From: Patescibacteria group bacterium
Lineage (GTDB): Bacteria; Patescibacteriota; Patescibacteriia; Patescibacteriales; UBA12465
Assembly: GCA_041658665.1 (NCBI GenBank)
Contig: JBAZZR010000003.1
Span: forward strand, 4,125-68,124
Direction of reading: 5' to 3'
DNA length: 64,000 bases
This document shows, one piece after another, positions 23,162 through 54,218 of the stretch. The notes below the pieces were generated by a model. It was not told where the DNA came from. It saw only the letters and a list, made by a program, of their open reading frames with translations, and ran no database searches. The first letter of the stretch is position 1; each line of letters opens with the position of its first letter. Made by a program: the position numbers and the translations under genes.

Positions 23162-23243
23162 AATCTAATAACAAATTTTGAACAAAATTTTAGTTTGACT
23201 GTTTTCTCTTAATATTATACTATAAACTTATAAATAAAGAAAT

Positions 23244-23840
23244 ATGCTAGAAGCTATTTTCGGCTCAGAAACTCGAGTAAAAATCATTAATTTTTTGTTA
23301 TTGTCAACAGAAAAAAAGTACCAATTAATGGCTCTCGTTAAGAATTTGAATCTGTCCGCCGCCCCTTTGCGACGCGAACTAGATAACCTGGTTAAATTCG
23401 GGTTAATTAAGGAAGAAAAAATAATTATTACCACCAATAAAAAAAATCAGCCAGCTGAACAAAAAAACTACAGCGCTAATACCGCTTTCATTCTGTATCC
23501 CGAAATCAAAACCCTCTTTGCGAAAGCGCAAATACTCTTCAGCCAAAAATTTATAAATAATCTGCAAAAAATCAGCCAGACTAAATTTTTAGCTTTAAGC
23601 GGAATATTTACTAATGACTCTGAAGCTAAAACCGATATTTTAATCGCCGGACATATTAAAAAATCTTCATTTTTAAAATTAATCCAGGGTTTAGAAAAGG
23701 AGCTCGGTCGGGAAATAAACTTCACTATTCTTAGCGAACAAGAATTCCGCTACCGAGAAACAGTAATGGATATATTTTTATATTCTATTTTAGAAGGTAA
23801 AACTCTTATCTTGCTGGATAATCTTCATAAAACAAAGTAA
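23244..23840 (+). CDS. Putative winged-helix DNA-binding protein with uncharacterised C-terminal domain
   Basis: N-terminus (FGSETRVKIINFLLL...LMALVKNLNLSAAPLRRELDNLVKFGLI) looks like an ArsR/MarR-type wHTH. The rest is unassigned. Confidence 0.4.
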   Translation: MLEAIFGSETRVKIINFLLLSTEKKYQLMALVKNLNLSAAPLRRELDNLVKFGLIKEEKIIITTNKKNQPAEQKNYSANTAFILYPEIKTLFAKAQILFSQKFINNLQKISQTKFLALSGIFTNDSEAKTDILIAGHIKKSSFLKLIQGLEKELGREINFTILSEQEFRYRETVMDIFLYSILEGKTLILLDNLHKTK

Positions 23841-25830: not shown

Positions 25831-27108
25831 TTATTTAATTATTTGAAAAGTGGTGCTATAGCTAAGTTTCGAATTCTCCGCCGTTACTTTAATATCAACG
25901 ACGCCGGGCGCTAAATCAGGAACAACTAACTTTTGACTAAAACGTCCCCGGTAATCAGCTCGCGCTTGGCTACTAGTACCGCTAAAATTTATTTTTAACT
26001 GTTCGTGCGGCAAATAACCACCCCCCGATAAAGTGATCATATTACTGGGCGCCCCAAAATTATGATCTAAATTCAAATATAAATTTTCTAAACTACTTAC
26101 TTCTTCTATCATTTCACTAACTTCAACCGCGGTTATTTTACGTAAATTTTCATCTAACACTAAAATATTTGAACCGTTGAATAAAACAACTTTATCGCCA
26201 TTTACATCAACCACCTTGAGCCCCATCGCCCAACCCGCCGGTCCGCCTAAACTAGTCGTCCAGCGATAAGTTACTTCTTTAAGATTAGTTTTATTTAATT
26301 TAACTAAACCGGCGCCGTTAGAAAAATAAATATAATTATTAACCCCCGAAGAGCTAATATCATAGCCGGGATAATCAGCATGTTTAAAACTGGCTACTAA
26401 ATCACCAGCTAAATCAAATTTTTTCGTATAATAATCGTCCACAATAAATAAATCACCATTATCATCCTGATAAGCCTGGCGATTACCAGGATTTTTTTTA
26501 TAATTTACCGGGATACTTAAAATATTGGTCCGTTGACTGCGATCAAAAACCAATAAATGATTGTCTTGAACATCTAAAATATTTTCTGAGTTATAAGCTC
26601 TGAGATTATAAGAAGAGACGCTGTCGCTAATTTCATAGGCATTAATAACCTGCAAATCCTTATTCCAAACTTTTACGCCCTTATTGCTAACCGTTACTAA
26701 ATCAGAGCCGAATTTATCAACTCGGCTATACCACTCCCAATAAGTATTCTTATCACTCTTAATTAAAGCTATCTGGTTGTCCTCGAACACTTCATATTTA
26801 TATAATGTGTATTCGCTGACCGCATAAACAAAAAGGCGCCCGGCCTCGACTGAAAATTTCAAATCATAAAACTTACCATAAGTTCCAAAACGTTCATTAA
26901 ACGGTTTAATCTTTAGGATCGGGCTCAAAGAGCGACCCTCTAACTTAAATAATTCTAAGCTATCGGAATTTGTCGATCCAATATAAAGACGACCATTAAA
27001 ATTAACAGCGTCTCCGGAATAATAAGATTTTATTTTACTTTGGCTAGCCGTAGCTAGAAAAAAGATTAGGACAAAACAAAATAAAAATAAGAAAGCAAAC
27101 TTTTTCAT
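25831..27108 (-). CDS. Secreted beta-propeller-like protein with C-terminal Ig-like domain
   Basis: I place the start at the ATG at 27108 (MKKFAFLFLFCFVLIFFLATA signal peptide). The track's 27186 start would run through the predicted promoter. Body has repeated beta-rich segments. The C-terminal about 90 aa (LSGGGYLPHEQLKINFSG ... VVDIKVTAEN) is Ig/TIG-like. Confidence 0.5.
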   Translation of the reverse strand: MKKFAFLFLFCFVLIFFLATASQSKIKSYYSGDAVNFNGRLYIGSTNSDSLELFKLEGRSLSPILKIKPFNERFGTYGKFYDLKFSVEAGRLFVYAVSEYTLYKYEVFEDNQIALIKSDKNTYWEWYSRVDKFGSDLVTVSNKGVKVWNKDLQVINAYEISDSVSSYNLRAYNSENILDVQDNHLLVFDRSQRTNILSIPVNYKKNPGNRQAYQDDNGDLFIVDDYYTKKFDLAGDLVASFKHADYPGYDISSSGVNNYIYFSNGAGLVKLNKTNLKEVTYRWTTSLGGPAGWAMGLKVVDVNGDKVVLFNGSNILVLDENLRKITAVEVSEMIEEVSSLENLYLNLDHNFGAPSNMITLSGGGYLPHEQLKINFSGTSSQARADYRGRFSQKLVVPDLAPGVVDIKVTAENSKLSYSTTFQIIK

Positions 27109-27195
27109 AAATAGACTAATATTAAACAGATTAAACTTACAGAAATGACTTCTTTCTATACTACATAATTTTATAAAAAATGTCAACGAAATGTA

Positions 27196-27224
27196 TTGAC
27201 AAAATAAAGTATTAATAGTAATAT
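27196..27224 (+). promoter_or_regulatory. Near-consensus sigma70 promoter for the 27283 gene
   Basis: TTGACA 27196-27201, 17-nt spacer, TAATAT 27219-27224. An inverted TTGACA at 27186-27181 can serve the divergent gene. Confidence 0.6.
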
Positions 27225-27282
27225 AAATTATTAAACAAAAAACAGTAAATTAACAAATTAACAAAAATAAAGAGGTAATATC

Positions 27283-28152
27283 GTGAAAGTACAAATGTTC
27301 ATTATGTTTTTGGTAATCATGCTATTAAACATGATACCACTCAAAGCCCAGAGTCCAACACAAGCTCAAATACTGGGCTTAAACAACAGCGATCTCCATG
27401 CGTCCATCTTCGCCGGGTATTTTACAGAAACCCGTCAAGATGGATTTTATGAGGGGGCACAGATCAGCTACAAACCCCTTAAATTAGGTGCTTGGGGCGG
27501 CGGAGTCTATTTTATGGGCTCTCATTCATCTTTTCAAAATTATACTCTCGACCGTTACAAAGGCCAAGAAAATAATATCGAACAGGGGATCCAGACATCC
27601 TACTGGAGAAATCTTAACCGATCCTGCGACTTATTCGTAGGTCTAAATATCGGCGGAAGGTATTCGGCCAGTAAAGGGGAATCTTGGGGTGGTAAATACC
27701 AAGGGAAACAAAAAAACATTTTGATAACGAGCAATCTTAACATCAATCTGCTCAGAATGTCCTCGATATTCCCACGTACTCAACTCCTCATTTCCGCTCA
27801 ACGAGGAGTTGAAGAGATGAACAACGCTACCTGGAATGGCGATACGCTCCGCTCTAGCCCTTGGATCAAAGATGGAATAGATTGGACTTTAAAAAGTTCA
27901 ATTATAGATTTCGACATAGTCGAAGGAATCTGCGGTTGCGGAGAGAGAAGCTCTTTCCTGATATCCCCTAAATTAATCCTAGGGGGAATATACGACGCCA
28001 GTTATCCGAGTGCCTACAAAGTTGGCGCGGAACTAGGATTTCATAAACGAAGTAAAGATGATTTTATATCACTTTATTTCGTGGCTAAGTTTAGACCATT
28101 TAGAGAAGCCCAGTTTACTATAGGTCTAAATATCGGCCTAAATAACTTTTAA
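27283..28152 (+). CDS. Secreted beta-rich protein, possible beta-barrel outer-membrane-type protein (GC-richer than neighbours)
   Basis: GTG start 8 nt after the aaagagg SD. Signal peptide (MKVQMFIMFLVIMLLNMIPLKAQ). Alternating hydrophobic/polar strands, a repeated GLNIG block, and a C-terminus (FTIGLNIGLNNF) ending in Phe. Confidence 0.45.
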   Translation: MKVQMFIMFLVIMLLNMIPLKAQSPTQAQILGLNNSDLHASIFAGYFTETRQDGFYEGAQISYKPLKLGAWGGGVYFMGSHSSFQNYTLDRYKGQENNIEQGIQTSYWRNLNRSCDLFVGLNIGGRYSASKGESWGGKYQGKQKNILITSNLNINLLRMSSIFPRTQLLISAQRGVEEMNNATWNGDTLRSSPWIKDGIDWTLKSSIIDFDIVEGICGCGERSSFLISPKLILGGIYDASYPSAYKVGAELGFHKRSKDDFISLYFVAKFRPFREAQFTIGLNIGLNNF

Positions 28153-28170
28153 ATCACAAACAAAACAAGA

Positions 28171-28198
28171 AAGCCCGGTGAACAAATCCGGGCTTTTT
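28171..28198. terminator. Rho-independent terminator
   Basis: aagcccgg 28171-28178 / ccgggctt 28188-28195, T-run to 28198. Confidence 0.8.
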
Positions 28199-28228
28199 CA
28201 TTTTCAAAAACCAATATTTCATTAATCC

Positions 28229-29617
28229 TTAAGATATCGCTTCTAATTTACCGTGCTGTTTAAGACTACCGGCGTCATTTTTATCTTGAGACTTAGGCAC
28301 TACTGACTGAACGGCGAAGAGCGCGCCGACTAAAGTCCAAAAATGCCATTCTAAAGCAGTATCACTTAAAATATTATCACCGAAACTCGCTAAATAAATA
28401 GAACAAGCCAAAGAAAACATAAAAATATTAATAATTTGAAGCCGCGCTCGTTTCTCGACTCGATAAAATTTTAAAAAACGAACAATTAAAACAAGTACTA
28501 AAAGGGCATAAAGACTTAAACTCACGAAACCACCTTCTAAGGCTAAGCGCATATAATCATTATGCGGTTGCGTAGCGCCTAAGCGGAAATCACGATTCCG
28601 AGCGATAACTTCCTCAGCTAAACCAACGCCATAACCGCTCACTGGATGTTCTTTGACATACGAAAAACCATCATAATACAAACGCCAACGCCAGGCGATA
28701 GAGCCGGAATTATCACCATTAAATATGGTATTAAATCGATCTTGAAAAGAAATAGAGCTAAGATATAAAAATAAAAAAACTAAAGCCGCAGCGACTAATA
28801 ACTTACGAAATTTAAATAATCCCACTAGTAAAATAATTAATAAAAGAGCCAGATAGGCGCCGCGCGTATAAGTAAAGGCGAGAATGAAAGAGAAAAAAAG
28901 CGCCAAAAAAAGATAGATATAAGCTTCCAGGCGGCTTTTTTTAACCGTCAAAAATACAAACATCGCTAGCGTAATCGATAATAAAAGATAAAAGGCTAAC
29001 ATGTTCGGATGAATCATTGTACCATAAAGACGATTAACCCCGTTTTCTGGCCAACCAGAATTCGTAAAAAACTGATATAAAGCAATAAGCGATGGGAAAA
29101 GCGCTGACCAAACAATCACCTTAATCAACTTAGTTAAATCATCATTAGTTTTTATAAGAGTCGCTCCCAAGGCTAAACTAAAAATAATACTAGCATAACG
29201 CGCCAACTCTTTAACTGACTCAGTAATATTAAAAGAATAAGTTAATGAATAAACCGACCAGGCGAAAAAAATTAGCCATAAAAATAATAACGGTTTCTCT
29301 TTAAGGTCCCGAAAATTATTAATTAAAACAATTAAAGCAAAGAGTGCCATAAAAGCACTGAACACGATATTAATATTTAACCCCTCTAAAGAAAAAAGAC
29401 CTTGGTTGGTTAACATGTCAATGGCTGGACGTAAAAACATAAATACCAAAAAGCCGCGTTGGTAATCCAATATACTAAGAGTAAATATAATTAATAAAAT
29501 AACGAAAAAAAATTTTGTTGAACTGTCGAAGGGAAGGAGTAAAATGATAAGAGCGCTGAGCAGGGCCAGAAAAACCAAAAAAGAAAAAAATAGCTTAGAC
29601 CTTAATCTATCAGCCAT
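28229..29617 (-). CDS. O-antigen ligase / polymerase-like (Wzy_C family) polytopic membrane protein
   Basis: More than 10 TM helices and a large loop carrying QPHNDYMRLALEGG, as in the O-antigen ligase family. Confidence 0.7.
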   Translation of the reverse strand: MADRLRSKLFFSFLVFLALLSALIILLLPFDSSTKFFFVILLIIFTLSILDYQRGFLVFMFLRPAIDMLTNQGLFSLEGLNINIVFSAFMALFALIVLINNFRDLKEKPLLFLWLIFFAWSVYSLTYSFNITESVKELARYASIIFSLALGATLIKTNDDLTKLIKVIVWSALFPSLIALYQFFTNSGWPENGVNRLYGTMIHPNMLAFYLLLSITLAMFVFLTVKKSRLEAYIYLFLALFFSFILAFTYTRGAYLALLLIILLVGLFKFRKLLVAAALVFLFLYLSSISFQDRFNTIFNGDNSGSIAWRWRLYYDGFSYVKEHPVSGYGVGLAEEVIARNRDFRLGATQPHNDYMRLALEGGFVSLSLYALLVLVLIVRFLKFYRVEKRARLQIINIFMFSLACSIYLASFGDNILSDTALEWHFWTLVGALFAVQSVVPKSQDKNDAGSLKQHGKLEAIS

Positions 29618-29679
29618 ATTATGGTATGATAATATATTATTGCTTAATTTTAACTTAATTTTCCCTAAAAAGTCAAAAT

Positions 29680-30918
29680 ATGAAAATACTTTTAGTTAAT
29701 AAATTCTATTATCATAGAGATGGGGTCAGCAACTATTTATTAGCTTTAGAAAAACAACTGACCGCCCTAGGCCACACCGTGCGAATATTTGCTATGGCTA
29801 ACCCAAAAAATTTGCCAAGTCCGGATAAAAAATATTTTGTTTCTTATCTCTCGTTTGATAAGCCCGGCTTAAAAAACACGGTCCGAGCGCTCAGTAGAAT
29901 TTTCTATAGTCGGGAAGCGAAAAAAAAATTTAGCGCGCTCCTAGACGACTTCCATCCCGACGTAATCCATATTCATAATATTTATCATCATATTTCTCCC
30001 TCAATTTTACCAGTCGCGACCGCGGCGCATATTCCGGTCGTTATGCATTTACACGACTATAAATTAATTTGTCCAAATTATAAATTATTTACTAAAGGTC
30101 AGGTTTGCGAAAAATGCCATGACGGCCATTACTATCACTGTTTTTTTAATAAATGTCTAAAAAATTCTTATTTAAAAAGTCTCGGGGGATCGTTAGAAAT
30201 GTATGCGCATCATAAACTTTGGCCAGTCTATAAACGCCATATTGAATTATTCATCGCGCCTAGTCAGTTCATGAAAAATATTTGTCAAAACTTTGGCTGG
30301 CCGGAAAATAAAATTATTCACCTCCCGAATTTTTATGACGACAAAGCTCATCAAGAAACAAAATCCGAAAAAAGAAAAAACGGCGACGAACCTTATTTCC
30401 TTTACTACGGCCGCTTAGCCGAAGAGAAGGGCGTAGCAGTTATTCTCAAAACTTTAAGCCAGGCGCCTGGCCGCTTAAAAATCGCCGGCGAGGGACCAGA
30501 AGCCGCAAAACTTAAAAATCTGAGCACTCAATTAAAATTAGAAAACCGAGTAGATTTCTTAGGCTTCCAGACTGGCGCCAATTTAGACAAACTCATAAGG
30601 GAAGCGACCGCTGTCATTGTCCCGTCTATCTGGTTAGAAAACATGCCCTTAAACGTCCTAGAAGCCCTAGCTAGACATAAAATTGTTATTGCCTCATCAA
30701 TAGGCGGTATTCCGGAGATAATCCAGAATGGTCGTAATGGGATATTATTTACGGCCGGATCGAGCGAAGAATTAGCCAAAATTATCAAAAATCTCGACAA
30801 CCTAAATTTAACTGAAATCGAGAAAATGGCCGGAGAAAGCGTAAAAGACTTCAATATTATCTCTCATACTCAAGAAATCCTTAAAATATACACTAAAGTT
30901 TTAAAAAATAAGATCTAG
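29680..30918 (+). CDS. Glycosyltransferase, GT4 family
   Basis: GT-B architecture with C-terminal GRLAEEKG and PSIWLENMPLNVLEALA (EX7E-type) motifs. Confidence 0.8.
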   Translation: MKILLVNKFYYHRDGVSNYLLALEKQLTALGHTVRIFAMANPKNLPSPDKKYFVSYLSFDKPGLKNTVRALSRIFYSREAKKKFSALLDDFHPDVIHIHNIYHHISPSILPVATAAHIPVVMHLHDYKLICPNYKLFTKGQVCEKCHDGHYYHCFFNKCLKNSYLKSLGGSLEMYAHHKLWPVYKRHIELFIAPSQFMKNICQNFGWPENKIIHLPNFYDDKAHQETKSEKRKNGDEPYFLYYGRLAEEKGVAVILKTLSQAPGRLKIAGEGPEAAKLKNLSTQLKLENRVDFLGFQTGANLDKLIREATAVIVPSIWLENMPLNVLEALARHKIVIASSIGGIPEIIQNGRNGILFTAGSSEELAKIIKNLDNLNLTEIEKMAGESVKDFNIISHTQEILKIYTKVLKNKI

Positions 30919-31029
30919 TCTTTATCAAACTCGTCTTAGTCGCTATTGACAATATTTTTATAATATATTAAGATAAGCTATTAATATATCATTTAAATAT
31001 CATCTAAAATCCTAAAAAAGAGCGAAAAT

Positions 31030-31848
31030 ATGGAAATAAACCATTTCTGGCATTTACTTAAAACAAGAAAATCAGTTATTTTATCAACTTGGCTTATTTT
31101 TATAATCCTTGGTTCTCTTATTACCTTTTTACAACCCCTAAAATATGAGGCTAAATCACGCTTACTAATCGTGCAAAACGTGGCCGGAATTGATCCTTAT
31201 ACTGTTTCCAAATCTAATCAATATCTTAGTAGCCTTTTCGCCCAAGTTGTCTATTCTAATTCCTTCTTTGATCTAGTCACAAATTCCAGTAATTTTGACA
31301 TTGACAGAAGCTATTTCCAAAGTACCTATAAGAAACAGATGGAGGTCTGGGAAAAAAGTATCGCGGCTAGCAGTCTAAACGATACCGGCATCATTGAAAT
31401 TTCTATTTATCACCCGAACCCTTATCAAGCCAAGGAACTGGCTCTAGCGGCTAATGACGTTCTAATTAACCAAGGCTTTAATTACCAAGGAGGCGGCGAT
31501 AATATTAAAGTTAAAATTATCGACCAACCACTAGTTTCTGACTACCCCGTAAAACCTAATATAATTTTTAATTTAATCGCTTTCTCTCTACTTGGTCTTA
31601 TCACTGGCGCCAGTTATTTATATTTTTTTCCTAATCAGGTTATTAAAATGATTAAAACAACGCCACTTATTATTAAGCCAGACTACCAACCGAAATCTCC
31701 TACTCTTGAAGCAGAAAACCGAACACCGGAACATCATCACTACGCTCATACTAATAACGTTACCAAGCCGTACTCAGCGTCTAATGGAATCAGAGTTCAA
31801 GCTGATCCTATCCGGGGAAGCATTAATAATGTATTACCTAAATTTTAA
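31030..31848 (+). CDS. Wzz-like polysaccharide chain-length determinant protein
   Basis: N-terminal TM followed by PLKYEAKSRLLI, a periplasmic-type domain and a second TM (FNLIAFSLLGLITGASYLYFF). Confidence 0.6.
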   Translation: MEINHFWHLLKTRKSVILSTWLIFIILGSLITFLQPLKYEAKSRLLIVQNVAGIDPYTVSKSNQYLSSLFAQVVYSNSFFDLVTNSSNFDIDRSYFQSTYKKQMEVWEKSIAASSLNDTGIIEISIYHPNPYQAKELALAANDVLINQGFNYQGGGDNIKVKIIDQPLVSDYPVKPNIIFNLIAFSLLGLITGASYLYFFPNQVIKMIKTTPLIIKPDYQPKSPTLEAENRTPEHHHYAHTNNVTKPYSASNGIRVQADPIRGSINNVLPKF

Positions 31849-31921
31849 TTATAGACTTCGATCCTCTCTCCGGCTCGAAGCTTGTGATTAAACAAGCAAT
31901 CGTTTAAAAAATGATTGAGGT

Positions 31922-31950
31922 TTGCACCTTAAAAATATTCAAATCATAAT
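31922..31950 (+). promoter_or_regulatory. Sigma70-type promoter for the 31969 gene
   Basis: TTGCAC 31922-31927, 17-nt spacer, CATAAT 31945-31950, then SD aaaggagg 31955-31962. Confidence 0.55.
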
Positions 31951-31968
31951 CCAAAAAGGAGGTCTATA

Positions 31969-32736
31969 ATGGACCAAGCAAAAAAAGAAAAGTGGCAACA
32001 CATAGGAGCAGGAGTCCTAATAATGGGACTTATAGTTCTTATTGCTGCCCTCGTAGTCCGTTACAATGGTTGTGACGGAACAACTGGGAAAAAAGTCGTT
32101 CAAACAGATACTGCTAAACAGACTGAATTGAACAAAAACACTGATAATGGAGGAAGTTCCTCCATAAGCCGATCCGAATTCGACGACTTAAGCGCTGAAG
32201 TTGCGGCGCTCAGAGATTGCTGCGAAGGCAAAACTGGACAAAAAGCAACGCTTAAACCAAAGTCTGCTCCTGCTCCCGCTCCTGCTCCCGCTCCCGCGCC
32301 CAAACCATCTCCCGCTCCCGCGCCCAAACCATCTCCCGCTCCCGCTCCCACACCGGCAGTAAACTATCAAAGCGTATTTGATGGATCTCATGGAGTAACT
32401 GTCGATGAGAAAGGGTATCTCATTTGGTGGATATTGGATTCGGAACTAAACGCCGGGGAAAGTCGCCCGACTATTCAACAGCCGGAACTTAACAGACAAG
32501 GGGGACCGAGATTCTCTCTAGAAGGGAATATGTGGATCTACAGATCCAAAATCCTCTATAGCGGAAACGGATTTGACCTCTGGTGTATTTACATTGGAAA
32601 CCATAGCGAATATGGCTTCCCAATGTTTGTCCCACATGAACTAGCTAAAGTGGAGAGGATTGATTCGGAGATGCGTCAACATAAGAATGACATTGGTTGG
32701 GAATACGTTTCCCCAATCAGATTCACGACGCGCTAA
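31969..32736 (+). CDS. Membrane-anchored protein with Pro/Ala-rich repetitive linker and unknown C-terminal domain (GC-richer than neighbours)
   Basis: TM helix (IGAGVLIMGLIVLIAALVV), linker (APAPAPAPAPAPKPSPAPAPKPSPAPAPTPA) and a 130-aa Trp/Tyr-rich C-domain in which I see no recognisable motif. Confidence 0.5.
   Translation: MDQAKKEKWQHIGAGVLIMGLIVLIAALVVRYNGCDGTTGKKVVQTDTAKQTELNKNTDNGGSSSISRSEFDDLSAEVAALRDCCEGKTGQKATLKPKSAPAPAPAPAPAPKPSPAPAPKPSPAPAPTPAVNYQSVFDGSHGVTVDEKGYLIWWILDSELNAGESRPTIQQPELNRQGGPRFSLEGNMWIYRSKILYSGNGFDLWCIYIGNHSEYGFPMFVPHELAKVERIDSEMRQHKNDIGWEYVSPIRFTTR
32287..32334 (+). repeat. Perfect 24-nt tandem duplication inside the Pro/Ala linker
   Basis: cccgctcccgcgcccaaaccatct occurs at 32287-32310 and again at 32311-32334, embedded in degenerate gctccc/gctcct hexamers from about 32263 to 32350. 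Confidence 0.9.
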
Positions 32737-32796
32737 GTCCTCCTCTCTTTCAAAAACTGTTTAACTATTCTTATTTCAAAAGATAGCTAAACAAAA

Positions 32797-32822
32797 GGGT
32801 CTGATTCACTCAGACCCTTTTT
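32797..32822. terminator. Rho-independent terminator (bidirectional)
   Basis: gggtctga 32797-32804 / tcagaccc 32810-32817, T-run to 32822, with an A-run upstream. Confidence 0.85.
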
Positions 32823-32850
32823 ATATACAAATTAATTTTTATTTAGCAGT

Positions 32851-33948
32851 CTATTTAATCTCTTGATATAATCCCAGAACTTTTTTAGCAATATCCAACC
32901 AGCTATATTCCTTTTTTACTCGTTCTAAAGAAGCGACTCCTAATTTAGCTAATTCCTGATTTGTTAACAGTTCCTTCATTTTAAGATATAAATCATTAAC
33001 ATCATTGGTTTTAAATAAACATCCCGTACCGCTAAGCGCCTCCTGATTAGCTTCAATATCACTAGCTAAACAGGCTAAGCCGTAAGACATGGCCTCTAAT
33101 AAGGCAATCGACAACCCCTCGCTTTCTGAAGCCTGAACAAAAGCATAAGCGTTAGAGTATAACTCCGCTAAAGTGCGCCCCGTCTGATTACCAGTAAAGA
33201 TTATTCTTTGATCATCGCCGGCTAGTTCATGAAGTTCGCGGACGTAATCGTTAGTATAGGCGCCATCGCCGACAATAACTAATTTTTTATCAGTTAATAA
33301 TTTCTTATAAGCCGTAATCAAATGATGAATCCCTTTATGACGGACCAAACGAGAAATCGAAACAAAATAATTACCTTCTTCTAAACCCCAACGACGAATT
33401 TCCTGAACCGGCATTCTTTCCTTAACAGTCGCTCCGTTCGGAATATAGACGGCCGATTTATGATAAGTATCAAAAGTATATTTTTTTAATTCTTGAGAAA
33501 TCGTCACCACTCGGTTAGCTAATAAACAACCAACTTTTTCTCCAAAATATAAGTACCAACGCGCTAAACGTCCCCATTTCTTATGTTGATAATCGCGACA
33601 ATGAAAAGTAAAAACAATCGGCGTTCTCGGCTTTAAAAGACGTGCTAACCAAATAAGGGAAGCCGGACCGACCGATTGAAAATTAATAATATCGACCGGA
33701 CGACGGATTAAATCTAGACAAGCTAAAAAAGTGTGAGAAATCGCTTCAAAATTTTTACCCGAAATATTCGGAAGGGGAATAATTTTGATATTCTTATATT
33801 CGGTTAAATCATGACTATAATTTTTACGAGAATAGACCAAAACTTCTTGACCCTGTTGGGCTAGATTTAAGGCTAAATTCTCAACATAGCGCTCTACGCC
33901 GCCTGTTTGAGCCGGTATTCCTTTTTGTCCAATAAAAACAATCTTCAT
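32851..33948 (-). CDS. Glycosyltransferase, GT4 family
   Basis: MKIVFIGQKGIPAQTGGVERYVENL N-terminus, C-terminal SRLVRHKG and ASESEGLSIALLEAMSYG (EX7E) motifs. Confidence 0.8.
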   Translation of the reverse strand: MKIVFIGQKGIPAQTGGVERYVENLALNLAQQGQEVLVYSRKNYSHDLTEYKNIKIIPLPNISGKNFEAISHTFLACLDLIRRPVDIINFQSVGPASLIWLARLLKPRTPIVFTFHCRDYQHKKWGRLARWYLYFGEKVGCLLANRVVTISQELKKYTFDTYHKSAVYIPNGATVKERMPVQEIRRWGLEEGNYFVSISRLVRHKGIHHLITAYKKLLTDKKLVIVGDGAYTNDYVRELHELAGDDQRIIFTGNQTGRTLAELYSNAYAFVQASESEGLSIALLEAMSYGLACLASDIEANQEALSGTGCLFKTNDVNDLYLKMKELLTNQELAKLGVASLERVKKEYSWLDIAKKVLGLYQEIK

Positions 33949-34066
33949 AAGAATATAACTATATCAATAATAACCCTTAATCATAGGATATATTAAAAAT
34001 TTTGTCAATAGAATAAAAATTATTTTAAAATTGGCTAAATTATTTAAATATAAATTAAAATTTTAC

Positions 34067-34124
34067 AAAAAAAGAGGCTCACCAGAGAACTTCAAGCTTA
34101 GTGCTTGAAATTCCTTGATGAGCC
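34067..34124 (-). terminator. Long imperfect hairpin terminator downstream of the lipoprotein gene
   Basis: Arms of about 22 nt (34076-34097 and 34102-34124) around a ttag loop. The C/T differences between the arms become G-U pairs only on the minus-strand transcript. The A-run 34067-34073 is a T-run on the minus strand. Confidence 0.6.
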
Positions 34125-34138
34125 AATAATCACTTATA

Positions 34139-35332
34139 CTAATTATACCTAACAACGGTAAACGTCCGTTGAGAGGTATTTTTTCCGGGAGGAGCGACAG
34201 AAATAATCTGCGCCTTTAGAACTAGATACTTCTTATCAAAGAATCCAGATTTTTCAATCGGAATTCCTAAATAATCGTCGGGAATACTTGAGTTGAGCCC
34301 TACTCGAAGCGATAAAATACCGTCGGGGACATCGGCGTAATTAATTGACGCGACTCCCCAATTCGGAGAACTTGTCACCGCTATTTCGGGGATGGGATTT
34401 AGAAATTTACCAGTCAAAAGATTTTGTCTTCTAATAAACGGGCTACCAACAAACTCTTTGCCGAGATTGACATAAATTAAAAGCTTATCAGTAAGGGGGG
34501 TAAAACGGATTACGGCAGTATCTCCCACATCGCCCAAATAACCGGGTAATGAGGATGTAGTAGTTGTGACGGTAGTGATAGTCCAATCGGAATTAACTTT
34601 GAACCCAATGTCAGTACCAACGCAATACTGACTGAAAAACTTAGCCCATTTTTTGACTCCATCAATGGAATCGATTTTTCCGATTCCCATATGATAGATC
34701 TTAGGAGTCACAATGAATTTGATCATTACATATGGAGCTACCCCGCTAGTATCCAAACTGGTCGAATCAGATGACCAGTATCTTTTTTTAGAGACAAAGG
34801 TCGCGTCCCAGCTATTCATATCGCCGGTGTAATAAATATTATTACCGGCATAAGCAGCTAACGGCTCTGTTCGAGCGAACATAGTCAGCTGAGCTGTGTT
34901 GTTTCCGAGCGGAACCAGAGGGCTAATCACAAGATCATAGCCACCGGAGAGTGTGAGTAATAGATTCACCGTTATGGAATGAACTTGCCCCGTACTTGCG
35001 GTACCAATAAGTTTAACAGTCGCTAGAGACCCAGGCGTACCATTAAATTCTTTGACAGCAATAGAATCAAGAACATGACTCGAGTCTGAGAATATCCATT
35101 CCCAGCTGCTCCATTTAATGGCTGGATCCAGGCCTACTGCTCGGAAAATGACTTTGGTATTTACCAAAATCACAACCGTATCTCCTGCTGCCAGCGTTTT
35201 ATTGCTGACGGAAATAGCGAGTTTTCCCAATATGACATCCGGATTACCCGAAGGTGGTTCAACCGGCATGTCATGACGACAACCGGCGAAAAAAACAAAT
35301 AACAAAACTAGTGAACCGATGAACTTTTTCAT
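34139..35332 (-). CDS. Lipoprotein of unknown function (GC-richer than neighbours)
   Basis: Signal peptide with lipobox FFAGC (MKKFIGSLVLLFVFFAGCRHD). Beta-rich, Thr/Ser-rich body. No catalytic motif recognised. Confidence 0.55.
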   Translation of the reverse strand: MKKFIGSLVLLFVFFAGCRHDMPVEPPSGNPDVILGKLAISVSNKTLAAGDTVVILVNTKVIFRAVGLDPAIKWSSWEWIFSDSSHVLDSIAVKEFNGTPGSLATVKLIGTASTGQVHSITVNLLLTLSGGYDLVISPLVPLGNNTAQLTMFARTEPLAAYAGNNIYYTGDMNSWDATFVSKKRYWSSDSTSLDTSGVAPYVMIKFIVTPKIYHMGIGKIDSIDGVKKWAKFFSQYCVGTDIGFKVNSDWTITTVTTTTSSLPGYLGDVGDTAVIRFTPLTDKLLIYVNLGKEFVGSPFIRRQNLLTGKFLNPIPEIAVTSSPNWGVASINYADVPDGILSLRVGLNSSIPDDYLGIPIEKSGFFDKKYLVLKAQIISVAPPGKNTSQRTFTVVRYN

Positions 35333-35450
35333 TTTAGAGCCTTTCTTTATGTGATATATTTTGAATTATTAACGAACTAAATAAATTACCCGTAAATACA
35401 GATATTCAACAGTATCATATTATTAATTTAATGTCAAATAAAAAAGAAAC

Positions 35451-35475
35451 AAAAAAGAGGCCGATAATCGGCCTC
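35451..35475 (-). terminator. Rho-independent terminator after the CorA-like gene
   Basis: gaggccg 35457-35463 / cggcctc 35469-35475. The A-run 35451-35456 is a T-run on the minus strand. Confidence 0.75.
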
Positions 35476-35512
35476 ACAGGAATAAACTAATAATAAAATA
35501 AACTTTAAAATT

Positions 35513-36546: not shown

Positions 36547-37728
36547 ATGGTCAATATTTTGGGAATAAACTTAAGCGATTTAAAGCGTTTCGAAATAGCC
36601 AAAAAAATTGAGGAATTTCTCGAACAAAAAGAACGGCATTATCTAGTCACTCCCAACCCCGAAATTATTCTGGCGTCTCATCAAGACGAGGAATTATTCT
36701 ATATTCTCAATAAAGCGGATCTCGCAATCGCCGATGGTTTTGGTTTAAAATTAGCCGGCCATTTTTACGGCGAAAATATTCCCCGCTTAACTGGAGCGGA
36801 TCTAACTTTAGATTTACTAGAACTAGCTAAAAATAGAGGCCTTAAAATAGCTATTTTAAATTGGCGAGCCGGCTTATCAAATAAAAAAATTTTAACGGCC
36901 GCTCTAACGAAAAAATATCCTGGCCTCTTAACATTAATCCTGGACTTAGATCGCACTCCGACTCTGCCGCCAGCCGCCATCACGGACTTAAATAATTTTG
37001 CGCCTCAAATACTCTTTGTTACTTTCGGCTCACCTTACCAAGAAAAAATTATCTATCATAACTTGGCGAAATTAACGACGATAAAATTAGCCCTCGGCGT
37101 CGGCGGCGCTTTTGATTTTATTAGCGGCCAAGCTAACCGCGCCCCTAAATTTTTAAGACAAGCCGGCTTAGAATGGTTATGGCGCCTCGCTGAGCAACCG
37201 CGCCGCTTAAAACGAATTTATAACGCCACCATCGTCTTTTTATATAAAATAATACGCGCGCGTTTTATCAACCAATTCTTATACCGATCAAATGTCGTCT
37301 GCTTCTTATATAAGAAAAAAAATAATATTTATCAAGTGGCGATTGTCCAAAGAGAAGATAATCATAACCATTGGCAATTACCCCAGGGTGGCCGAGACGG
37401 ACAAACCGTGGCGACCGCCGGCGCTCGGGAAATGGCGGAAGAATTAGGCACAAATAAATTTATCACTAAAGCTATTTTTGAAAATGTCAGTCGTTATAAT
37501 TTTTGGGGCGAGGGAAGCCGAAGAAGATATCAACGTAATTATAAAGGACAAAAACAGAGTCTTTATATAGCCGAATTTACTGGGCAAGACCGAGATATTA
37601 AAATAAACTTTTGGGATCATACCGCCTGGCGCTGGGTCGAAACCGATAAATTAATAGAGTCTGTCCACCCGCACCGGCAAGAATCGACTCGGATATTCTT
37701 AGATAAATTTAAATCATTAAACGCTTAA
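36547..37728 (+). CDS. Fusion protein: WecG/TagA/CpsF-family (GT26) glycosyltransferase plus C-terminal Nudix hydrolase domain
   Basis: N-terminal part has NPEIILAS, ADGFGL, FGSPYQEK, GVGGAFDFISGQANRAPKF and GLEWLWRLAEQPRRL. C-terminal part has WQLPQGGRDGQTVATAGAREMAEELG (Nudix box core REMAEELG). Confidence 0.75.
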   Translation: MVNILGINLSDLKRFEIAKKIEEFLEQKERHYLVTPNPEIILASHQDEELFYILNKADLAIADGFGLKLAGHFYGENIPRLTGADLTLDLLELAKNRGLKIAILNWRAGLSNKKILTAALTKKYPGLLTLILDLDRTPTLPPAAITDLNNFAPQILFVTFGSPYQEKIIYHNLAKLTTIKLALGVGGAFDFISGQANRAPKFLRQAGLEWLWRLAEQPRRLKRIYNATIVFLYKIIRARFINQFLYRSNVVCFLYKKKNNIYQVAIVQREDNHNHWQLPQGGRDGQTVATAGAREMAEELGTNKFITKAIFENVSRYNFWGEGSRRRYQRNYKGQKQSLYIAEFTGQDRDIKINFWDHTAWRWVETDKLIESVHPHRQESTRIFLDKFKSLNA

Positions 37729-52874: not shown

Positions 52875-53354
52875 TTAAAATCTATTTTTTATCTTTATAA
52901 TCTTGTCCGCTTTAATCTTAGTTTCTTGCTCTAAAAAAAATTTATTAATACCCGGGAGCATTTTTAACCAATCTCTAATTAGGCCGATTATCTTATTAAT
53001 CTTGACTTTGGTTTGACTTAAAAGGACGTTAATCTTAGACACGGTTTCCTCCCCTTTTTTCTTAAAAGCCGCCTGCTCTAAGGGATTCATCTTTAAAAAT
53101 ATCTCATTTAGTCCCTCCTCTAATATAAGGTCAATGGCCGCCGCCCTCTGACTTTCTAAGGAATTTAGCTTTGAACTAACGGCCGCAACCGGTGACGCGA
53201 AAACTTTAGAAGCCGTCAAAGGCTCTTGTGGTTTTTCTGTTTTTTTCGCCGCTTGTTCAATTTTAGTCTCAGGACTAGTAATTTGTTCAGCCTGGCTAGC
53301 TGGCGCTTCGGGCGGACTTAATAGCGTTTGCTCAATAATTTTTTCACCAGCCAT
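52875..53354 (-). CDS. Hypothetical soluble protein (disordered N-terminus, helical C-terminus)
   Basis: ORF only, with no motif recognised. Co-oriented with, and 27 nt upstream of, the VirD4-like gene. Confidence 0.35.
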   Translation of the reverse strand: MAGEKIIEQTLLSPPEAPASQAEQITSPETKIEQAAKKTEKPQEPLTASKVFASPVAAVSSKLNSLESQRAAAIDLILEEGLNEIFLKMNPLEQAAFKKKGEETVSKINVLLSQTKVKINKIIGLIRDWLKMLPGINKFFLEQETKIKADKIIKIKNRF

Positions 53355-53369
53355 ATAGGTTCAAATAAA

Positions 53370-53546
53370 TTATTTCTTAATACTAATTGCTTCGACGGGA
53401 CAGGATTCTGATGCCTTAAGCGCATTATCATTTTCTTGAGAGTTCACTACTTCGGCCTTACCGTTTAAATTCATCTGAAAAATTTCCGGACAAAGACTAG
53501 CGCACATTCCACACCCGATGCATTTATTTTGATCTACTTTTACCAT
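53370..53546 (-). CDS. Small ferredoxin (58 aa, not in ORF track)
   Basis: My translation of the minus strand gives MVKVDQNKCIGCGMCASLCPEIFQMNLNGKAEVVNSQENDNALKASESCPVEAISIKK. It carries CxxCxxC...CP plus a distal CP, the pattern of single-cluster Fe-S ferredoxins. Confidence 0.7.
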   Translation of the reverse strand: MVKVDQNKCIGCGMCASLCPEIFQMNLNGKAEVVNSQENDNALKASESCPVEAISIKK

Positions 53547-53631
53547 AAAATTAAATTAAGACTAGCTAAGATATAATTAGCTAATATTTTTAAAAATTTT
53601 TAATAATAATTTCACTATTTTTGCTGTTTTT

Positions 53632-53640
53632 ATTATAACA
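53632..53640 (-). promoter_or_regulatory. Extended -10 element (TGTTATAAT) for the ferredoxin-led minus-strand gene run
   Basis: Reverse complement of attataaca at 53632-53640. No clear -35 element. Confidence 0.35.
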
Positions 53641-53667
53641 TATCTTATAAAAATTGAAACAATCCAT

Positions 53668-53696
53668 TTGACAATCATCTCGCCTTTTGTTATACT
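53668..53696 (+). promoter_or_regulatory. Near-consensus sigma70 promoter for rpmA
   Basis: TTGACA 53668-53673, 17-nt spacer, TATACT 53691-53696. Confidence 0.6.
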
Positions 53697-53772
53697 AAAT
53701 TAGAATAAAATAATTAGCATAATAATAACACGCTATCGATATGTTACGTGTTATTTGTTATTAGAAACTTCT

Positions 53773-54081
53773 ATGGCACACAAGAAAGCCGCCGGTTCAA
53801 CCTCATTAGGCCGCGAATCAGAAAGTAAACGACTAGGCGTTAAGCTAACTGATGGCGAGCGAGCTAAGACTGGCGCCATTATTATTAGACAACGGGGCAC
53901 TAAATATCATCCTGGCCTCAATGTAAAAAAAGGCAAAGATGACACTTTATTCGCTTTAAAACCAGGAATCGTTAAATTTTCTACTAAAAAATTAAAAAAA
54001 TACGATAATTCTTTAAAGATCTGCAAGGTAGTCAGTGTTATCGGAGCTAAGTTAGAAGAAAAAACAACGGTCACCAAATAA
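53773..54081 (+). CDS. rpmA: 50S ribosomal protein L27
   Basis: [24 protein letters not shown] ... [13 protein letters not shown] is the L27 signature. I prefer the ATG at 53773 over the track's TTG at 53755. Confidence 0.9.
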
Positions 54082-54106
54082 ACAAACACTATATTTAACT
54101 TAAACT

Positions 54107-54141
54107 AAAATAACCCTTATAAAGGGTTATTTTAGTTTTTT
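54107..54141 (+). terminator. Rho-independent terminator after rpmA
   Basis: 12-bp stem aaaataaccctt 54107-54118 / aagggttatttt 54122-54133, then T-run 54136-54141. Confidence 0.8.
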
Positions 54142-54218
54142 GATTTAACGGTCAAAAATATTCAATAGTCGGTTTAATACCCAAAAATAGTTGATGAATT
54201 AATCATTATATTTAAATT

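What the first reader, a model, noticed from the sequence alone, without database searches (positions are those of the whole stretch)
27187..35512. Three GC-richer, self-contained monocistronic surface-protein genes interleaved in an AT-rich glycan locus
SEEN: The genes at 27283-28152, 31969-32736 and 34139-35332 each have their own good SD and their own strong hairpin terminator (28171-28198, 32797-32822, 34067-34124). Two also have near-consensus promoters (27196-27224, 31922-31950).

Hand counts of single 60-nt lines:
- Inside these genes: 30/60 G+C (27361-27420), 28/60 (32401-32460), 33/60 (34861-34920) and 28/60 (34501-34560).
- In the adjacent glycosyltransferase/ligase genes: 18/60 (29701-29760), 22/60 (33301-33360) and 23/60 (28501-28560).

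All three encode exported or anchored proteins without recognisable enzymatic motifs: a signal peptide plus beta-rich protein, a TM-anchored PA-linker protein, and a lipoprotein.

INFERENCE: These are horizontally acquired or otherwise atypically evolving surface proteins inserted as independent units between envelope-biosynthesis genes. In an episymbiotic lifestyle they would be candidates for host or phage interaction.
Basis: partly seen in the sequence, partly recalled or inferred. Interest (0 to 1): 0.55.

Follow-up and report, generated by a model that had tools for sequence, protein, structure and literature searches.

The report
Conserved envelope protein trio in Patescibacteria
The three GC-richer genes are not imported DNA but an old, fast-evolving set of three surface proteins kept together in one group of tiny Patescibacteria. 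One of them is confidently predicted to fold like an outer-membrane barrel, which is odd in bacteria thought to have no outer membrane.

Summary
**Observation.** The description is accurate. All seven hand counts, the three ORFs, the ribosome-binding sites and the three hairpin terminators are there. The three genes rank 1st, 5th and 8th of 50 ORFs for GC, and 1st, 2nd and 6th for length-corrected tetranucleotide deviation.

**Horizontal transfer is refuted.**
- Back-translating the three proteins with the window's own codon usage reproduces their GC.
- GC3, given amino-acid content, is normal.
- There are no tRNAs, mobility genes or flanking repeats.
- All three genes lie in the same Wzz–GT4–CorA glycan locus in ten Patescibacteria lineages (one named Falkowbacteria).
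- In six of those lineages (one cut at a contig end) they are contiguous: Wzz→g1→g2, with g3 convergent. The window lineage has scattered them by local rearrangement.

**"Atypically evolving" is supported.** The trio keeps 23–37% identity where neighbours keep 41–79%. Against the closest relative, dN/dS is 0.05–0.21.

**What they are.**
- g1 is a signal-peptide protein. AlphaFold (pLDDT 90) models it as a 12-stranded outer-membrane-type β-barrel, closest to autotransporter β-domains.
- g2 is a membrane-anchored protein with a coiled coil, a spacer and a new C-terminal domain.
- g3 is a lipoprotein with a PKD domain.
- None of the three families is in Pfam or NCBIfam.

**Why it is interesting.** An OMP-type barrel conserved in a phylum regarded as having one membrane is the unexpected part.

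The parts
27196..27224 (+). Sigma-70-like promoter match upstream of g1 (TTGACA-17-TAATAT)
   Evidence: scores it 10/12. The block is identical in relative L001. This is a consensus match only, and such matches are common in this AT-rich region.
27283..28152 (+). g1: 289-aa secreted protein predicted to be a 12-stranded outer-membrane-type beta-barrel. It has a GTG start and an AGAGG ribosome-binding site 7 nt upstream.
   Evidence: About 55 family representatives were found in 1.84 billion clusters. AlphaFold2 with a 52-sequence alignment gave pLDDT 90.2 and pTM 0.81. Foldseek's best matches are autotransporter beta-domains, E down to 8e-8, TM up to 0.51. The strands show dyad hydrophobicity and aromatic girdles across the family. 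Three of 52 members give weak Pfam Autotransporter hits. dN/dS is 0.05.
28171..28198 (.). Bidirectional intrinsic terminator shared by g1 (+) and Wzy_C (-)
   Evidence: -16.9 kcal/mol, z -4.6. There is a T-run on both strands. It is conserved in L001.
31030..31848 (+). Wzz-like chain-length-determinant protein. It is the gene immediately upstream of g1->g2 in the commonest arrangement among relatives, and upstream of g2 here.
   Evidence: Pfam Wzz 4e-5 and GNVR 7e-4, both just below Pfam's own cut-offs. The order Wzz->g1->g2 is seen in L015, L016, L017, L019 and L006.
31921..31950 (+). Weak promoter-like match upstream of g2. A GGAGG ribosome-binding site lies at 31958-31962.
   Evidence: scores it 9/12. 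The sequence is shown. Co-transcription with Wzz is not excluded.
31969..32736 (+). g2: 255-aa bitopic membrane protein. It has an N-terminal anchor (about residues 12-30), a coiled coil ending in a conserved C..GKK motif, a Pro/Ala spacer (residues about 97-131, 12-nt DNA repeats at 32261-32357), and a roughly 120-aa C-terminal domain of a new family.
   Evidence: The family alignment is. About 22 representatives were found. The L006 homologue matches at E 9e-18 with the same architecture. Pfam, NCBIfam and PDB give only low-complexity or coiled-coil matches. The repeats are. dN/dS is 0.21.
32797..32822 (.). Bidirectional intrinsic terminator shared by g2 (+) and GT4b (-)
   Evidence: -17.3 kcal/mol, z -7.1. 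An A-run and a T-run flank the stem. It is conserved in L001.
34067..34124 (-). Long intrinsic terminator of g3, the strongest hairpin terminator in the window
   Evidence: -32.6 kcal/mol, z -7.9 (ranking). It is conserved in L001, with a few substitutions inside the hairpin whose effect on pairing was not checked.
34139..35332 (-). g3: 397-aa lipoprotein with an N-terminal PKD (Ig-like) domain and a roughly 270-aa C-terminal region of unknown fold
   Evidence: The lipobox Cys18 is invariant, with consensus [FLM][TFI][GAS]C in 33 members. The family profile matches collagenase PKD domains at E 3e-7. Ten of 33 members hit Pfam PKD_4 and five hit PKD. About 30 representatives were found. dN/dS is 0.10.
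35409..35437 (-). Candidate g3 promoter between the CorA terminator and g3 (TTGACA-17-TGATACTGT)
   Evidence: Read directly. The -35 is perfect, but the -10 matches only 3/6, with a TG extension, so the scanner did not list it. The block is conserved in L001. Tentative.
35457..35475 (-). CorA terminator, which makes g3 a separate transcription unit
   Evidence: -14.6 kcal/mol, z -4.9.
25831..27186 (-). 451-aa signal-peptide protein with no Pfam family. It is another conserved member of the same locus but is AT-rich (GC 0.344).
   Evidence: Homologues are found in seven of the ten compared loci (34-96% identity; L008 and L009 also have one). It shows that 'surface protein' does not by itself mean GC-rich here.

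Best explanation
The three genes are native, vertically inherited parts of one clade-specific cell-envelope gene set in a group of Patescibacteria that includes Falkowbacteria.

**Shown**
- Each belongs to an unannotated protein family.
- Whenever one of the three families is found, the other two lie within about 8 kb.
- They always sit in the same surface-glycan locus (DUF4012, Wzy_C, two or three GT4 glycosyltransferases, Wzz, CorA, WecG-NUDIX).
- The commonest order is Wzz->g1->g2, 13-69 nt apart, with g3 convergent next door.
- The window's lineage has moved g1 and flipped the g3/GT4b pair, so each gene now sits at a strand switch with its own, or a shared bidirectional, terminator.
- Their GC excess comes from their amino-acid composition: rich in Gly/Ser/Thr/Ala/Pro and poor in Lys/Ile, as in beta-rich extracytoplasmic proteins, plus a Pro-Ala spacer. 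It does not come from foreign codon usage.
- They diverge roughly twice as fast as their neighbours, yet are under purifying selection.

**Predicted from sequence and structure**
- g1 is exported by a Sec signal peptide and folds into a 12-stranded transmembrane-type beta-barrel with a hydrophobic belt.
- g2 is anchored N-in in the cytoplasmic membrane. It probably pairs through a coiled coil and holds a conserved C-terminal domain at the end of a long extended spacer.
- g3 is lipid-anchored and carries a PKD domain.

**Inferred, not shown**
- The three act together as an envelope-spanning assembly tied to the glycan made by the neighbouring genes.
- In this picture g2 reaches outward from the membrane, the g1 barrel sits in an outer hydrophobic layer, and g3 is a lipid-anchored partner. 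They would anchor, export or display the surface polymer.
For: **Families and co-occurrence**
- Families found. Alignments.
- Synteny and co-occurrence in ten lineages (window, L001/2, L012-14, L015, L016, L017, L006, L018, L019, L020).
- Identity table, trio 23-37% against neighbours 41-79%.
- dN/dS 0.05, 0.21 and 0.10.

**Composition**
- Explained by the protein sequence. The same GC2 pattern is seen in L012.
- No tRNA or flanking repeats.

**Folds and domains**
- g1 fold: with independent support.
- g3 lipobox and PKD domain.
- g2 architecture.

**Transcription units**
- Terminators.
Against: - No physical or functional link among the three proteins was tested. Co-localisation could reflect only a shared locus for surface components.
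- The barrel is a prediction. No outer membrane or BAM machinery is known in this phylum (PMC12102498; bioRxiv 10.1101/2021.05.31.446380), so where a barrel would sit is unexplained.
- Three Patescibacteria loci found through GT4b alone (L005, L008, L009) show no significant trio member. The set is therefore not universal, or it diverges beyond recognition.
- g1's GC3 is slightly high (z 1.8; whole-gene GC z 2.55 against back-translation), although other native genes reach the same values.
Confidence: 0.6

Rival explanations
1. The three genes are horizontally acquired cassettes, each inserted with its own promoter and terminator between native envelope genes.
For: - GC is higher than in the neighbours.
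- The three genes rank 1st, 2nd and 6th of 50 for tetranucleotide deviation.
- The word-index homology search found almost nothing.
- L005, L008 and L009 lack recognisable copies.
Against: - Codon usage is native once amino-acid content is accounted for.
- The locus is the same in ten lineages whose neighbouring genes share as little as about 40-55% identity.
- The trio is contiguous in six lineages.
- There are no mobility genes, tRNAs or repeats at the borders.
- Two of the 'own' terminators are ordinary bidirectional terminators at convergent junctions.
- All eight sampled loci of family members are this same locus type.
Confidence: 0.04
2. The three are native but functionally unrelated surface proteins, for example adhesins or host-contact proteins. 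They merely share a chromosomal neighbourhood where envelope genes accumulate. There is no complex and no link to the glycan.
For: - In the window each is a separate transcription unit.
- Order and orientation vary among lineages.
- Divergence is fast, as expected for exposed proteins.
- PKD domains and long spacers are common in adhesins.
Against: - Co-occurrence is strict: all three are present in 10 of 10 lineages that have any one.
- g1->g2 spacing is tight, 13-69 nt, in five lineages.
- The neighbourhood is retained despite repeated rearrangement, which suggests selection for linkage.
Confidence: 0.22
3. The g1 barrel is not part of the bacterium's own envelope. It is secreted and inserted into the outer membrane of a Gram-negative host cell as a channel or anchor point for the epibiont, and g2 and g3 form the attachment on the symbiont side.
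For: - The fold is an OMP-type barrel with a lipid-facing belt.
- The phylum is regarded as lacking an outer membrane (PMC12102498).
- The clade's lifestyle is thought to be episymbiotic (PMC7906910, title and abstract).
- Fast divergence fits a host-interaction interface.
Against: - No secretion or delivery system is linked to the locus.
- Single-chain barrels normally need BAM on the same side as their periplasmic delivery.
- The gene sits beside Wzz in a glycan operon rather than with effectors.
- No host is known for these lineages.
Confidence: 0.1
4. Artefact. The contig is chimeric, or belongs to a two-membrane organism mislabelled as Patescibacteria, so an outer-membrane barrel would be unremarkable.
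For: - Some GT4b-related contigs carry 'uncultured Gammaproteobacteria' labels (L007, L010, L011).
- L007 has a PKD protein that matches the g3 profile.
Against: - The same gene order was recovered in independent assemblies from NCBI, ENA, JGI and Logan.
- The NCBI records that carry an organism name call it Patescibacteria or Falkowbacteria.
- Housekeeping genes (UvrABC, SerRS, GluRS, L10, DnaX, CTP synthase) share the contig and the composition.
- No outer-membrane biogenesis gene is seen in 64 kb.
Confidence: 0.04

Closest known systems
12-stranded outer-membrane beta-barrels of type Va autotransporters (NalP, Hbp, EspP, BrkA, AIDA-I translocator domains)
   Same: - Best structural matches of the g1 model (Foldseek E 8e-8 to 4e-6, TM 0.45-0.51).
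- Similar size, about 265 residues of barrel.
- Sec signal peptide.
- Alternating hydrophobic and polar strands with aromatic girdles.
- The window protein ends in Phe.
- A few family members give weak Pfam Autotransporter hits.
   Different: - No passenger domain and no alpha-helical linker in the same chain.
- The window protein has no sequence-level match.
- It is encoded in a phylum regarded as single-membraned and without BAM.
- In relatives it is followed by a separate anchor-spacer-domain protein rather than fused to one.
TonB / TolA type envelope-spanning proteins
   Same: - g2 has an N-terminal membrane anchor, a long Pro-rich spacer (KP/AP repeats, like TonB) and a small C-terminal globular domain.
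- In relatives its gene directly follows a beta-barrel gene.
   Different: - No TonB_C or TolA match; the NCBIfam TonB hit covers only the Pro-rich stretch.
- No ExbBD or TolQR genes in the locus.
- The spacer composition is not conserved: it is Thr/Lys/Gln-rich in other members.
- There is an extra coiled coil with a conserved Cys.
- g1 has no plug domain or TonB box.
Wzx/Wzy-dependent polysaccharide pathways in which a Wzz-type co-polymerase works with an outer-membrane beta-barrel porin (PgaA/Wzp-like; recalled from my own knowledge of Myxococcus Wzp work, not checked here)
   Same: - A Wzz-like gene lies immediately upstream of the barrel gene in five lineages.
- The locus encodes Wzy_C, GT4 and WecG enzymes.
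- PgaA, AlgE and PelBC appear among the Foldseek hits.
   Different: - Those porins have 16-18 strands and match poorly (TM 0.19-0.29).
- No OPX/Wza protein is present.
- The Wzz-like protein lacks a kinase.
- The organism is thought to have no outer membrane to cross.
PKD-domain surface lipoproteins
   Same: g3 has a lipobox with an invariant Cys, followed by a PKD domain.
   Different: - The roughly 270-residue C-terminal region matches nothing.
- The window protein itself is too diverged to hit Pfam PKD.

Membership tests
Horizontally acquired genomic island | Synonymous codon usage or GC3 foreign to the host genome | tested here: not met
   GC3 given amino-acid content has z = 1.8, 0.08 and 0.33, against a window spread of sd 1.3. 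Back-translation with native codon usage reproduces the GC.
Horizontally acquired genomic island | Absent from the same position in related genomes | tested here: not met
   Present in the same locus in ten lineages. Not recognisable in L005, L008 or L009.
Horizontally acquired genomic island | Borders marked by tRNA genes, direct repeats or mobility genes | tested here: not met
   No tRNA in 64 kb. Only AT-rich chance repeats. The neighbours are glycan and CorA genes.
Outer-membrane beta-barrel protein (OMP), autotransporter-barrel-like | Cleavable Sec signal peptide | tested here: met
   The pattern is read from the sequences. All full-length members start MKK... followed by a hydrophobic stretch and then A/G-Q; Gln is in that column in 88%. 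No signal-peptide predictor was available.
Outer-membrane beta-barrel protein (OMP), autotransporter-barrel-like | Even number of long antiparallel strands closing into a barrel | tested here: met
   The AlphaFold2 model has pLDDT 90.2 and pTM 0.81, and I group its DSSP strand elements into 12 strands. Foldseek probability is 1.00 to 12-stranded barrels over 265-316 columns. It remains a prediction, and the coordinates were not inspected.
Outer-membrane beta-barrel protein (OMP), autotransporter-barrel-like | Alternating lipid-facing hydrophobic residues and aromatic girdles | tested here: met
   Family-mean hydropathy alternates along the strands. Aromatic columns of 0.8-1.0 frequency occur in and at the ends of strands, read as girdles.
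Outer-membrane beta-barrel protein (OMP), autotransporter-barrel-like | C-terminal beta-signal ending in an aromatic residue | tested here: inconclusive
   The window protein ends ...GLNIGLNNF. Other members end in F, L, or a short basic tail after the last strand.
Outer-membrane beta-barrel protein (OMP), autotransporter-barrel-like | Sequence membership in Pfam Autotransporter, OMP_b-brl or related families | tested here: not met
   No hit for the window protein even at E 10. Only 3 of 52 members hit Autotransporter, and one each PagL and OMP_b-brl, at weak E-values of 5e-4 to 5e-3. No PDB sequence hit.
Outer-membrane beta-barrel protein (OMP), autotransporter-barrel-like | Resides in an outer membrane and is assembled by BAM | not testable with these tools
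   Only 64 kb of the genome is visible, and no BamA-like gene is in it. The only POTRA hit is an FtsQ-type one. The literature treats the phylum as lacking an outer membrane (PMC12102498).
Bacterial lipoprotein | Signal peptide ending in a lipobox with an invariant Cys | tested here: met
   Cys18 is invariant in 33 sequences. Position -1 is G/A/S, and positions -3 and -2 are mostly hydrophobic or Thr/Ser.
PKD domain | Match to PKD profiles | tested here: met
   At family level, the profile matches collagenase PKD at E 3e-7, and 10 of 33 members hit PKD_4. The window protein alone gives no Pfam hit.
TonB / TolA | N-terminal membrane anchor plus extended Pro-rich spacer | tested here: met
   The spacer is Pro/Ala-rich here, but its composition varies in the family.
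TonB / TolA | TonB_C or TolA C-terminal domain | tested here: not met
   No Pfam, NCBIfam or PDB match to the C-terminal domain.
TonB / TolA | Partner proton-channel genes (ExbBD / TolQR) | tested here: not met
   None among the 40 window ORFs scanned or in the related loci.
Polysaccharide export porin with PCP/OPX partners | 16-18-stranded porin plus an OPX (Wza-like) protein next to the PCP | tested here: not met
   I count 12 strands. TM to PgaA, AlgE and PelB is 0.19-0.29. No Poly_export family is in the locus. Adjacency to Wzz is met.

The most novel reading that the evidence does not exclude
A clade of Patescibacteria (Falkowbacteria and relatives) has a real membrane-embedded, OMP-type beta-barrel. 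It would work with a cytoplasmic-membrane-anchored spacer protein and a PKD lipoprotein.

That would mean one of two things. Either these supposedly single-membrane bacteria have an unrecognised outer lipid layer served by a minimal, BAM-independent barrel system. Or they plant a barrel in their host's outer membrane as part of the attachment or feeding interface.
Probability: 0.25. Interest if true: 0.85.

Novelty: new variant of a known kind. Interest (0 to 1): 0.55.

Why it matters
As written (foreign GC-rich islands), the finding is explained away. This is a useful caution: in AT-rich, streamlined genomes, exported beta-rich proteins and Pro/Ala spacers can mimic compositional islands.

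What remains is more interesting.
- There are three undescribed protein families, always found together.
- They sit in the main surface-glycan locus of a Patescibacteria clade.
- One of them has the fold that defines outer membranes.

The envelope of these uncultured episymbionts is almost unknown and is assumed to have one membrane. A conserved OMP-type barrel, next to a TonB-like spanning protein and a lipoprotein, gives a concrete target to test. The question is whether some of these bacteria have an outer hydrophobic layer, or how they couple to host membranes.

Tried and rejected
- **Word-index homology search, one per protein.** It found only self and near-identical relatives, and wrongly suggested orphans. 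A full HMMER scan with a concatenated query then found about 100 relatives.
- **Pfam, NCBIfam and PHROGs on the single proteins.** Nothing beyond low-complexity hits to the PA spacer.
- **Single-sequence AlphaFold of g1.** pLDDT 31.6, useless.
- **PDB profile searches for g1 and for the g2 C-terminal domain.** No meaningful hit.
- **The search for related loci.** The metagenome scan through GT4b returned only distant glycosyltransferases.
- **Homology of the look-alike genes in L005** (308-aa beta-rich protein, 227-aa anchor/coiled-coil/Pro-linker protein, lipoproteins). Not demonstrated: hhalign probability 4-13%. They are the top sub-threshold hits of the g1 and g2 profiles among loci that lack a confirmed copy.
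- **A hydrolase role for g1, like PagL, PagP or OMPLA.** Set aside, because no conserved His is present among the invariant residues.
- **A lipobox in g2.** Considered because of a Cys a few residues after the anchor, but the preceding residues do not fit.

Full report
**1. The observation**

All seven 60-nt hand counts are exact. They say little on their own, because 21.6% of all 60-nt lines in the window reach 28 G+C.

Whole-gene statistics are more telling.

| Measure | g1 | g2 | g3 | Background |
|---|---|---|---|---|
| GC | 0.417 | 0.474 | 0.427 | mean 0.385, sd 0.031 over about 50 ORFs |
| GC rank of 50 | 8 | 1 | 5 | |
| Tetranucleotide distance, length-corrected z | 1.31 | 3.74 (highest) | 2.42 (second) | |

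g1 and g2 also have the two lowest TETRA correlations with the window. The genes are compositionally unusual.

The three hairpins are strong (-16.9, -17.3 and -32.6 kcal/mol; z -4.6, -7.1, -7.9) and are conserved in a relative. Two qualifications apply.
- The g1 and g2 hairpins carry A- and T-runs on both sides, so they serve the convergent Wzy_C and GT4b genes as well.
- Every convergent junction in the window has such a terminator, and CorA has its own.

The promoter matches (10/12 and 9/12) are of a kind found 59 times in 11.5 kb, against 35.5 expected.

**2. Is the composition foreign? No.**

- The GC excess sits in codon positions 1 and 2 (GC2 0.386, 0.465 and 0.422, against about 0.33 typically).
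- Given each protein's amino acids and the codon usage of the rest of the window, expected GC3 matches observed (z 1.8, 0.08, 0.33; window spread sd 1.3).
- Simulated back-translations give GC 0.396, 0.472 and 0.418, against 0.419, 0.476 and 0.427 observed. They also reproduce most of the tetranucleotide distance.
- The remaining excess in g2 comes from its 12-nt Pro-Ala repeats.
- Native genes such as the DUF4012 gene deviate as much as g1.
- There are no tRNAs in the window and no meaningful repeats at the gene borders.

**3. Relatives**

The window is from a Patescibacteria MAG (source name).

*Closest relatives.* Two closely related assemblies (L001, L002) are fully collinear, with all three genes in place. 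Identities are 93% (g1), 80% (g2) and 88% (g3), against 88-99% for the neighbours. dN/dS is 0.05, 0.21 and 0.10, so all three are real genes under purifying selection.

*Finding the families.* The capped word-index search made the proteins look like orphans. A full HMMER scan of 1.84 billion cluster representatives, with the three mature proteins concatenated, found about 55, 22 and 30 representatives of three families of constant length.

*Where the members sit.* Seven representatives from across the g1 and g2 families, including the weakest g1 hit, were looked up, and their eight loci all lie in the same kind of locus. Local HMMs confirmed that all three families are present in every one of these loci, and in a Falkowbacteria contig found independently through the GT4b glycosyltransferase.

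*Gene order.*
- In L015, L016, L017 and L006 the order is Wzz->g1->g2 then g3 (L020, cut at its 5' end, shows g1->g2 then g3).
- g1->g2 gaps are 13-69 nt, with g3 next, convergent in L015-L017 and L020 but on the same strand as GT4b in L006. GT4b and CorA follow g3 in L015, L017 and L020; in L006 they precede it, and L016 ends at g3.
- In L019 GT4b sits between g2 and g3.
- In L012 g1 is already where the window has it, and g2 and g3 are adjacent.
- In L018 the order is g2, GT4b, g1, g3.

The window's 'interleaved' layout is therefore one outcome of repeated small rearrangements inside a conserved neighbourhood. It is not three insertions.

*Rates.* Across these lineages the trio keeps 23-37% identity where neighbours keep 41-79%.

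*Exceptions.* Three Patescibacteria loci reached through GT4b alone (L005, L008, L009) have no significant member. L005 has, in the corresponding place, a 308-aa signal-peptide beta-rich protein followed 22 nt later by a 227-aa anchor/coiled-coil/poly-Pro protein, plus several lipoproteins. These are the best sub-threshold hits of the g1 and g2 profiles among loci without a confirmed copy (E 0.015 and 0.078), but homology is not shown.

**4. What the proteins are**

*g1.*
- With a 52-sequence alignment, AlphaFold2 gives pLDDT 90.2 and pTM 0.81. All five models score within 0.6 pLDDT of each other. The chain is all-beta; I group its DSSP strand elements into 12 long antiparallel strands after the signal peptide.
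- Foldseek's best PDB matches are the 12-stranded translocator barrels of autotransporters: Hbp, AIDA-I, BrkA, NalP and EspP (E 8e-8 to 4e-6, TM up to 0.51). OpcA, porins, PgaA, AlgE and the BamA barrel follow. The viral library gives the same answer.
- Three lines of evidence are independent of the model:
  - Three of 52 members give weak Pfam Autotransporter hits, and one each PagL and OMP_b-brl.
  - Family-mean hydropathy alternates residue by residue along the strands, with highly aromatic columns that I read as girdles.
  - The window protein ends in Phe.
- Conserved Arg165, Gln167, Lys230, Asp259/260, Glu250 and Lys204 suggest a functional barrel interior. No conserved His is present, which argues against a PagL/OMPLA-type hydrolase.
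- In 88% of members, Gln sits at the conserved position at the end of the signal peptide, the likely first residue after cleavage.

*g2.*
- A positively charged N-terminus and one hydrophobic helix form an N-in anchor.
- A segment follows that gives only coiled-coil-type Pfam noise and ends in a conserved C..GKK motif.
- Next comes a low-complexity spacer whose composition varies: Pro/Ala here, Thr/Lys/Gln elsewhere.
- The last ~120 residues form a C-terminal domain with conserved G..G.T, W..YIG and PHE motifs. It matches nothing known.

*g3.*
- A classical lipoprotein signal with an invariant Cys.
- A PKD domain: profile against collagenase PKD at E 3e-7, and 10 of 33 members hit PKD_4.
- About 270 residues of unknown fold.

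**5. How it most likely works**

*Shown.* The set is native, co-inherited, exported or anchored, fast-diverging and tied to a surface-glycan locus.

*Inferred.* The three proteins form, or serve, one envelope structure. g2 reaches outward from the cytoplasmic membrane on a rigid spacer. g1 sits in some outer hydrophobic layer. g3 is a lipid-anchored partner. Together they would anchor, export or display the polymer made by Wzy_C, the GT4 enzymes, Wzz and WecG.

The position of g1 directly after Wzz recalls co-polymerase/porin pairs. The g2 architecture recalls TonB or TolA. Neither family membership holds (see the membership table).

The Ser/Thr-bearing Ala/Pro spacer next to a Wzy_C-family enzyme also raises the possibility that g2 is O-glycosylated. 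This is a lead from general knowledge of PglL-type enzymes and was not tested.

**6. The puzzle**

The papers I could read treat Patescibacteria as single-membraned:
- grouped in a monoderm clade with Chloroflexi (bioRxiv 10.1101/2021.05.31.446380);
- the rare described CPR organisms have a monoderm cell-wall architecture (PMC8871954).

Three searches of the held library found no paper on OMP-type barrels in this phylum. This is not proof that none exists.

The 40 window ORFs that were scanned encode ordinary housekeeping genes and no outer-membrane biogenesis gene. So the barrel either marks an unrecognised outer layer, or is delivered to a host membrane, or has a non-membrane role despite its hydrophobic belt. 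I cannot decide among these with the tools at hand.

**7. Verdict**

| Question | Verdict |
|---|---|
| The observation | Correct |
| The HGT interpretation | Wrong |
| The 'atypically evolving surface proteins' alternative | Right |
| Novelty | A new variant of known kinds (OMP-type barrel, spanning anchor, PKD lipoprotein) in an unexpected phylum, as a previously undescribed three-gene set |

Noticed in passing
window 2030-6120 (+): Three overlapping or adjacent genes: a reverse transcriptase (RVT_1, 2e-17), a 572-aa protein with a weak ABC-type ATPase hit, and a PLD-like nuclease-family protein (PLDc_2, 2e-33). The layout resembles defence-associated reverse-transcriptase systems.
   Followed up: no
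window 30943-30987 and 33967-34011: A 45-nt inverted repeat, 73% complementary. It places nearly the same promoter-like sequence (CTATTGACAA...) in front of the Wzz gene (+) and the GT4b gene (-). The GT4b copy is the best promoter match in the region at 11/12. Possibly shared regulation.
   Followed up: no
window 25831-27186 (-): A 451-aa signal-peptide protein with no Pfam family. It is conserved in the same locus in most relatives (34-96% identity) but is AT-rich (GC 0.344). Exported proteins of this genome are therefore not uniformly GC-rich.
   Followed up: partly
window 20903-23840: A 752-aa protein (-) and a 198-aa protein (+) have no Pfam match. Both are conserved next to the DUF4012 gene in L012 at 51% and 58% identity.
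   Followed up: no
L005 11409-19129: A Patescibacteria relative with a similar CorA-GT4b context lacks recognisable g1-g3. Instead it has a 308-aa beta-rich signal-peptide protein, a 227-aa anchor/coiled-coil/poly-Pro protein 22 nt downstream, and three lipoproteins. This is either extreme divergence or replacement by an analogous set.
   Followed up: partly
g1 family alignment A5 (window 27283-28152, residue 23): 88% of members have Gln at the conserved position at the end of the signal peptide (...A/G-Q), the likely first residue after cleavage. From memory, this pattern is associated with Bacteroidota exported proteins. Whether other exported proteins of this clade follow it was not checked.
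   Followed up: no
window 32261-32357: The g2 Pro/Ala spacer is encoded by seven copies of a 12-nt repeat unit. The orthologue in L001 differs most in this stretch and by one residue in length, which suggests length change by slippage.
   Followed up: no
L007 8807-10048: A contig labelled 'uncultured Gammaproteobacteria' carries a GT4b homologue (52% identity). Directly after it is an ORF matching the g3 profile at E 7e-11, perhaps only through the PKD domain. The taxonomic label of this MAG may deserve a check.
   Followed up: no
window 36547-37728 (+): A WecG/TagA-type glycosyltransferase is fused to a NUDIX hydrolase domain, according to precomputed Pfam hits on its orthologues (this window ORF was not scanned). 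The fusion is conserved next to CorA in at least seven related loci.
   Followed up: no
window 53354-54219: An 864-nt stretch between genes has the lowest GC in the window (0.29 in the 53501-54500 bin). Its only ORF is a 108-aa one.
   Followed up: no
window 50376-52847 (-): An 823-aa protein gives weak hits to type IV secretion coupling-protein domains (TrwB, TraG-D_C). It lies among housekeeping genes.
   Followed up: no
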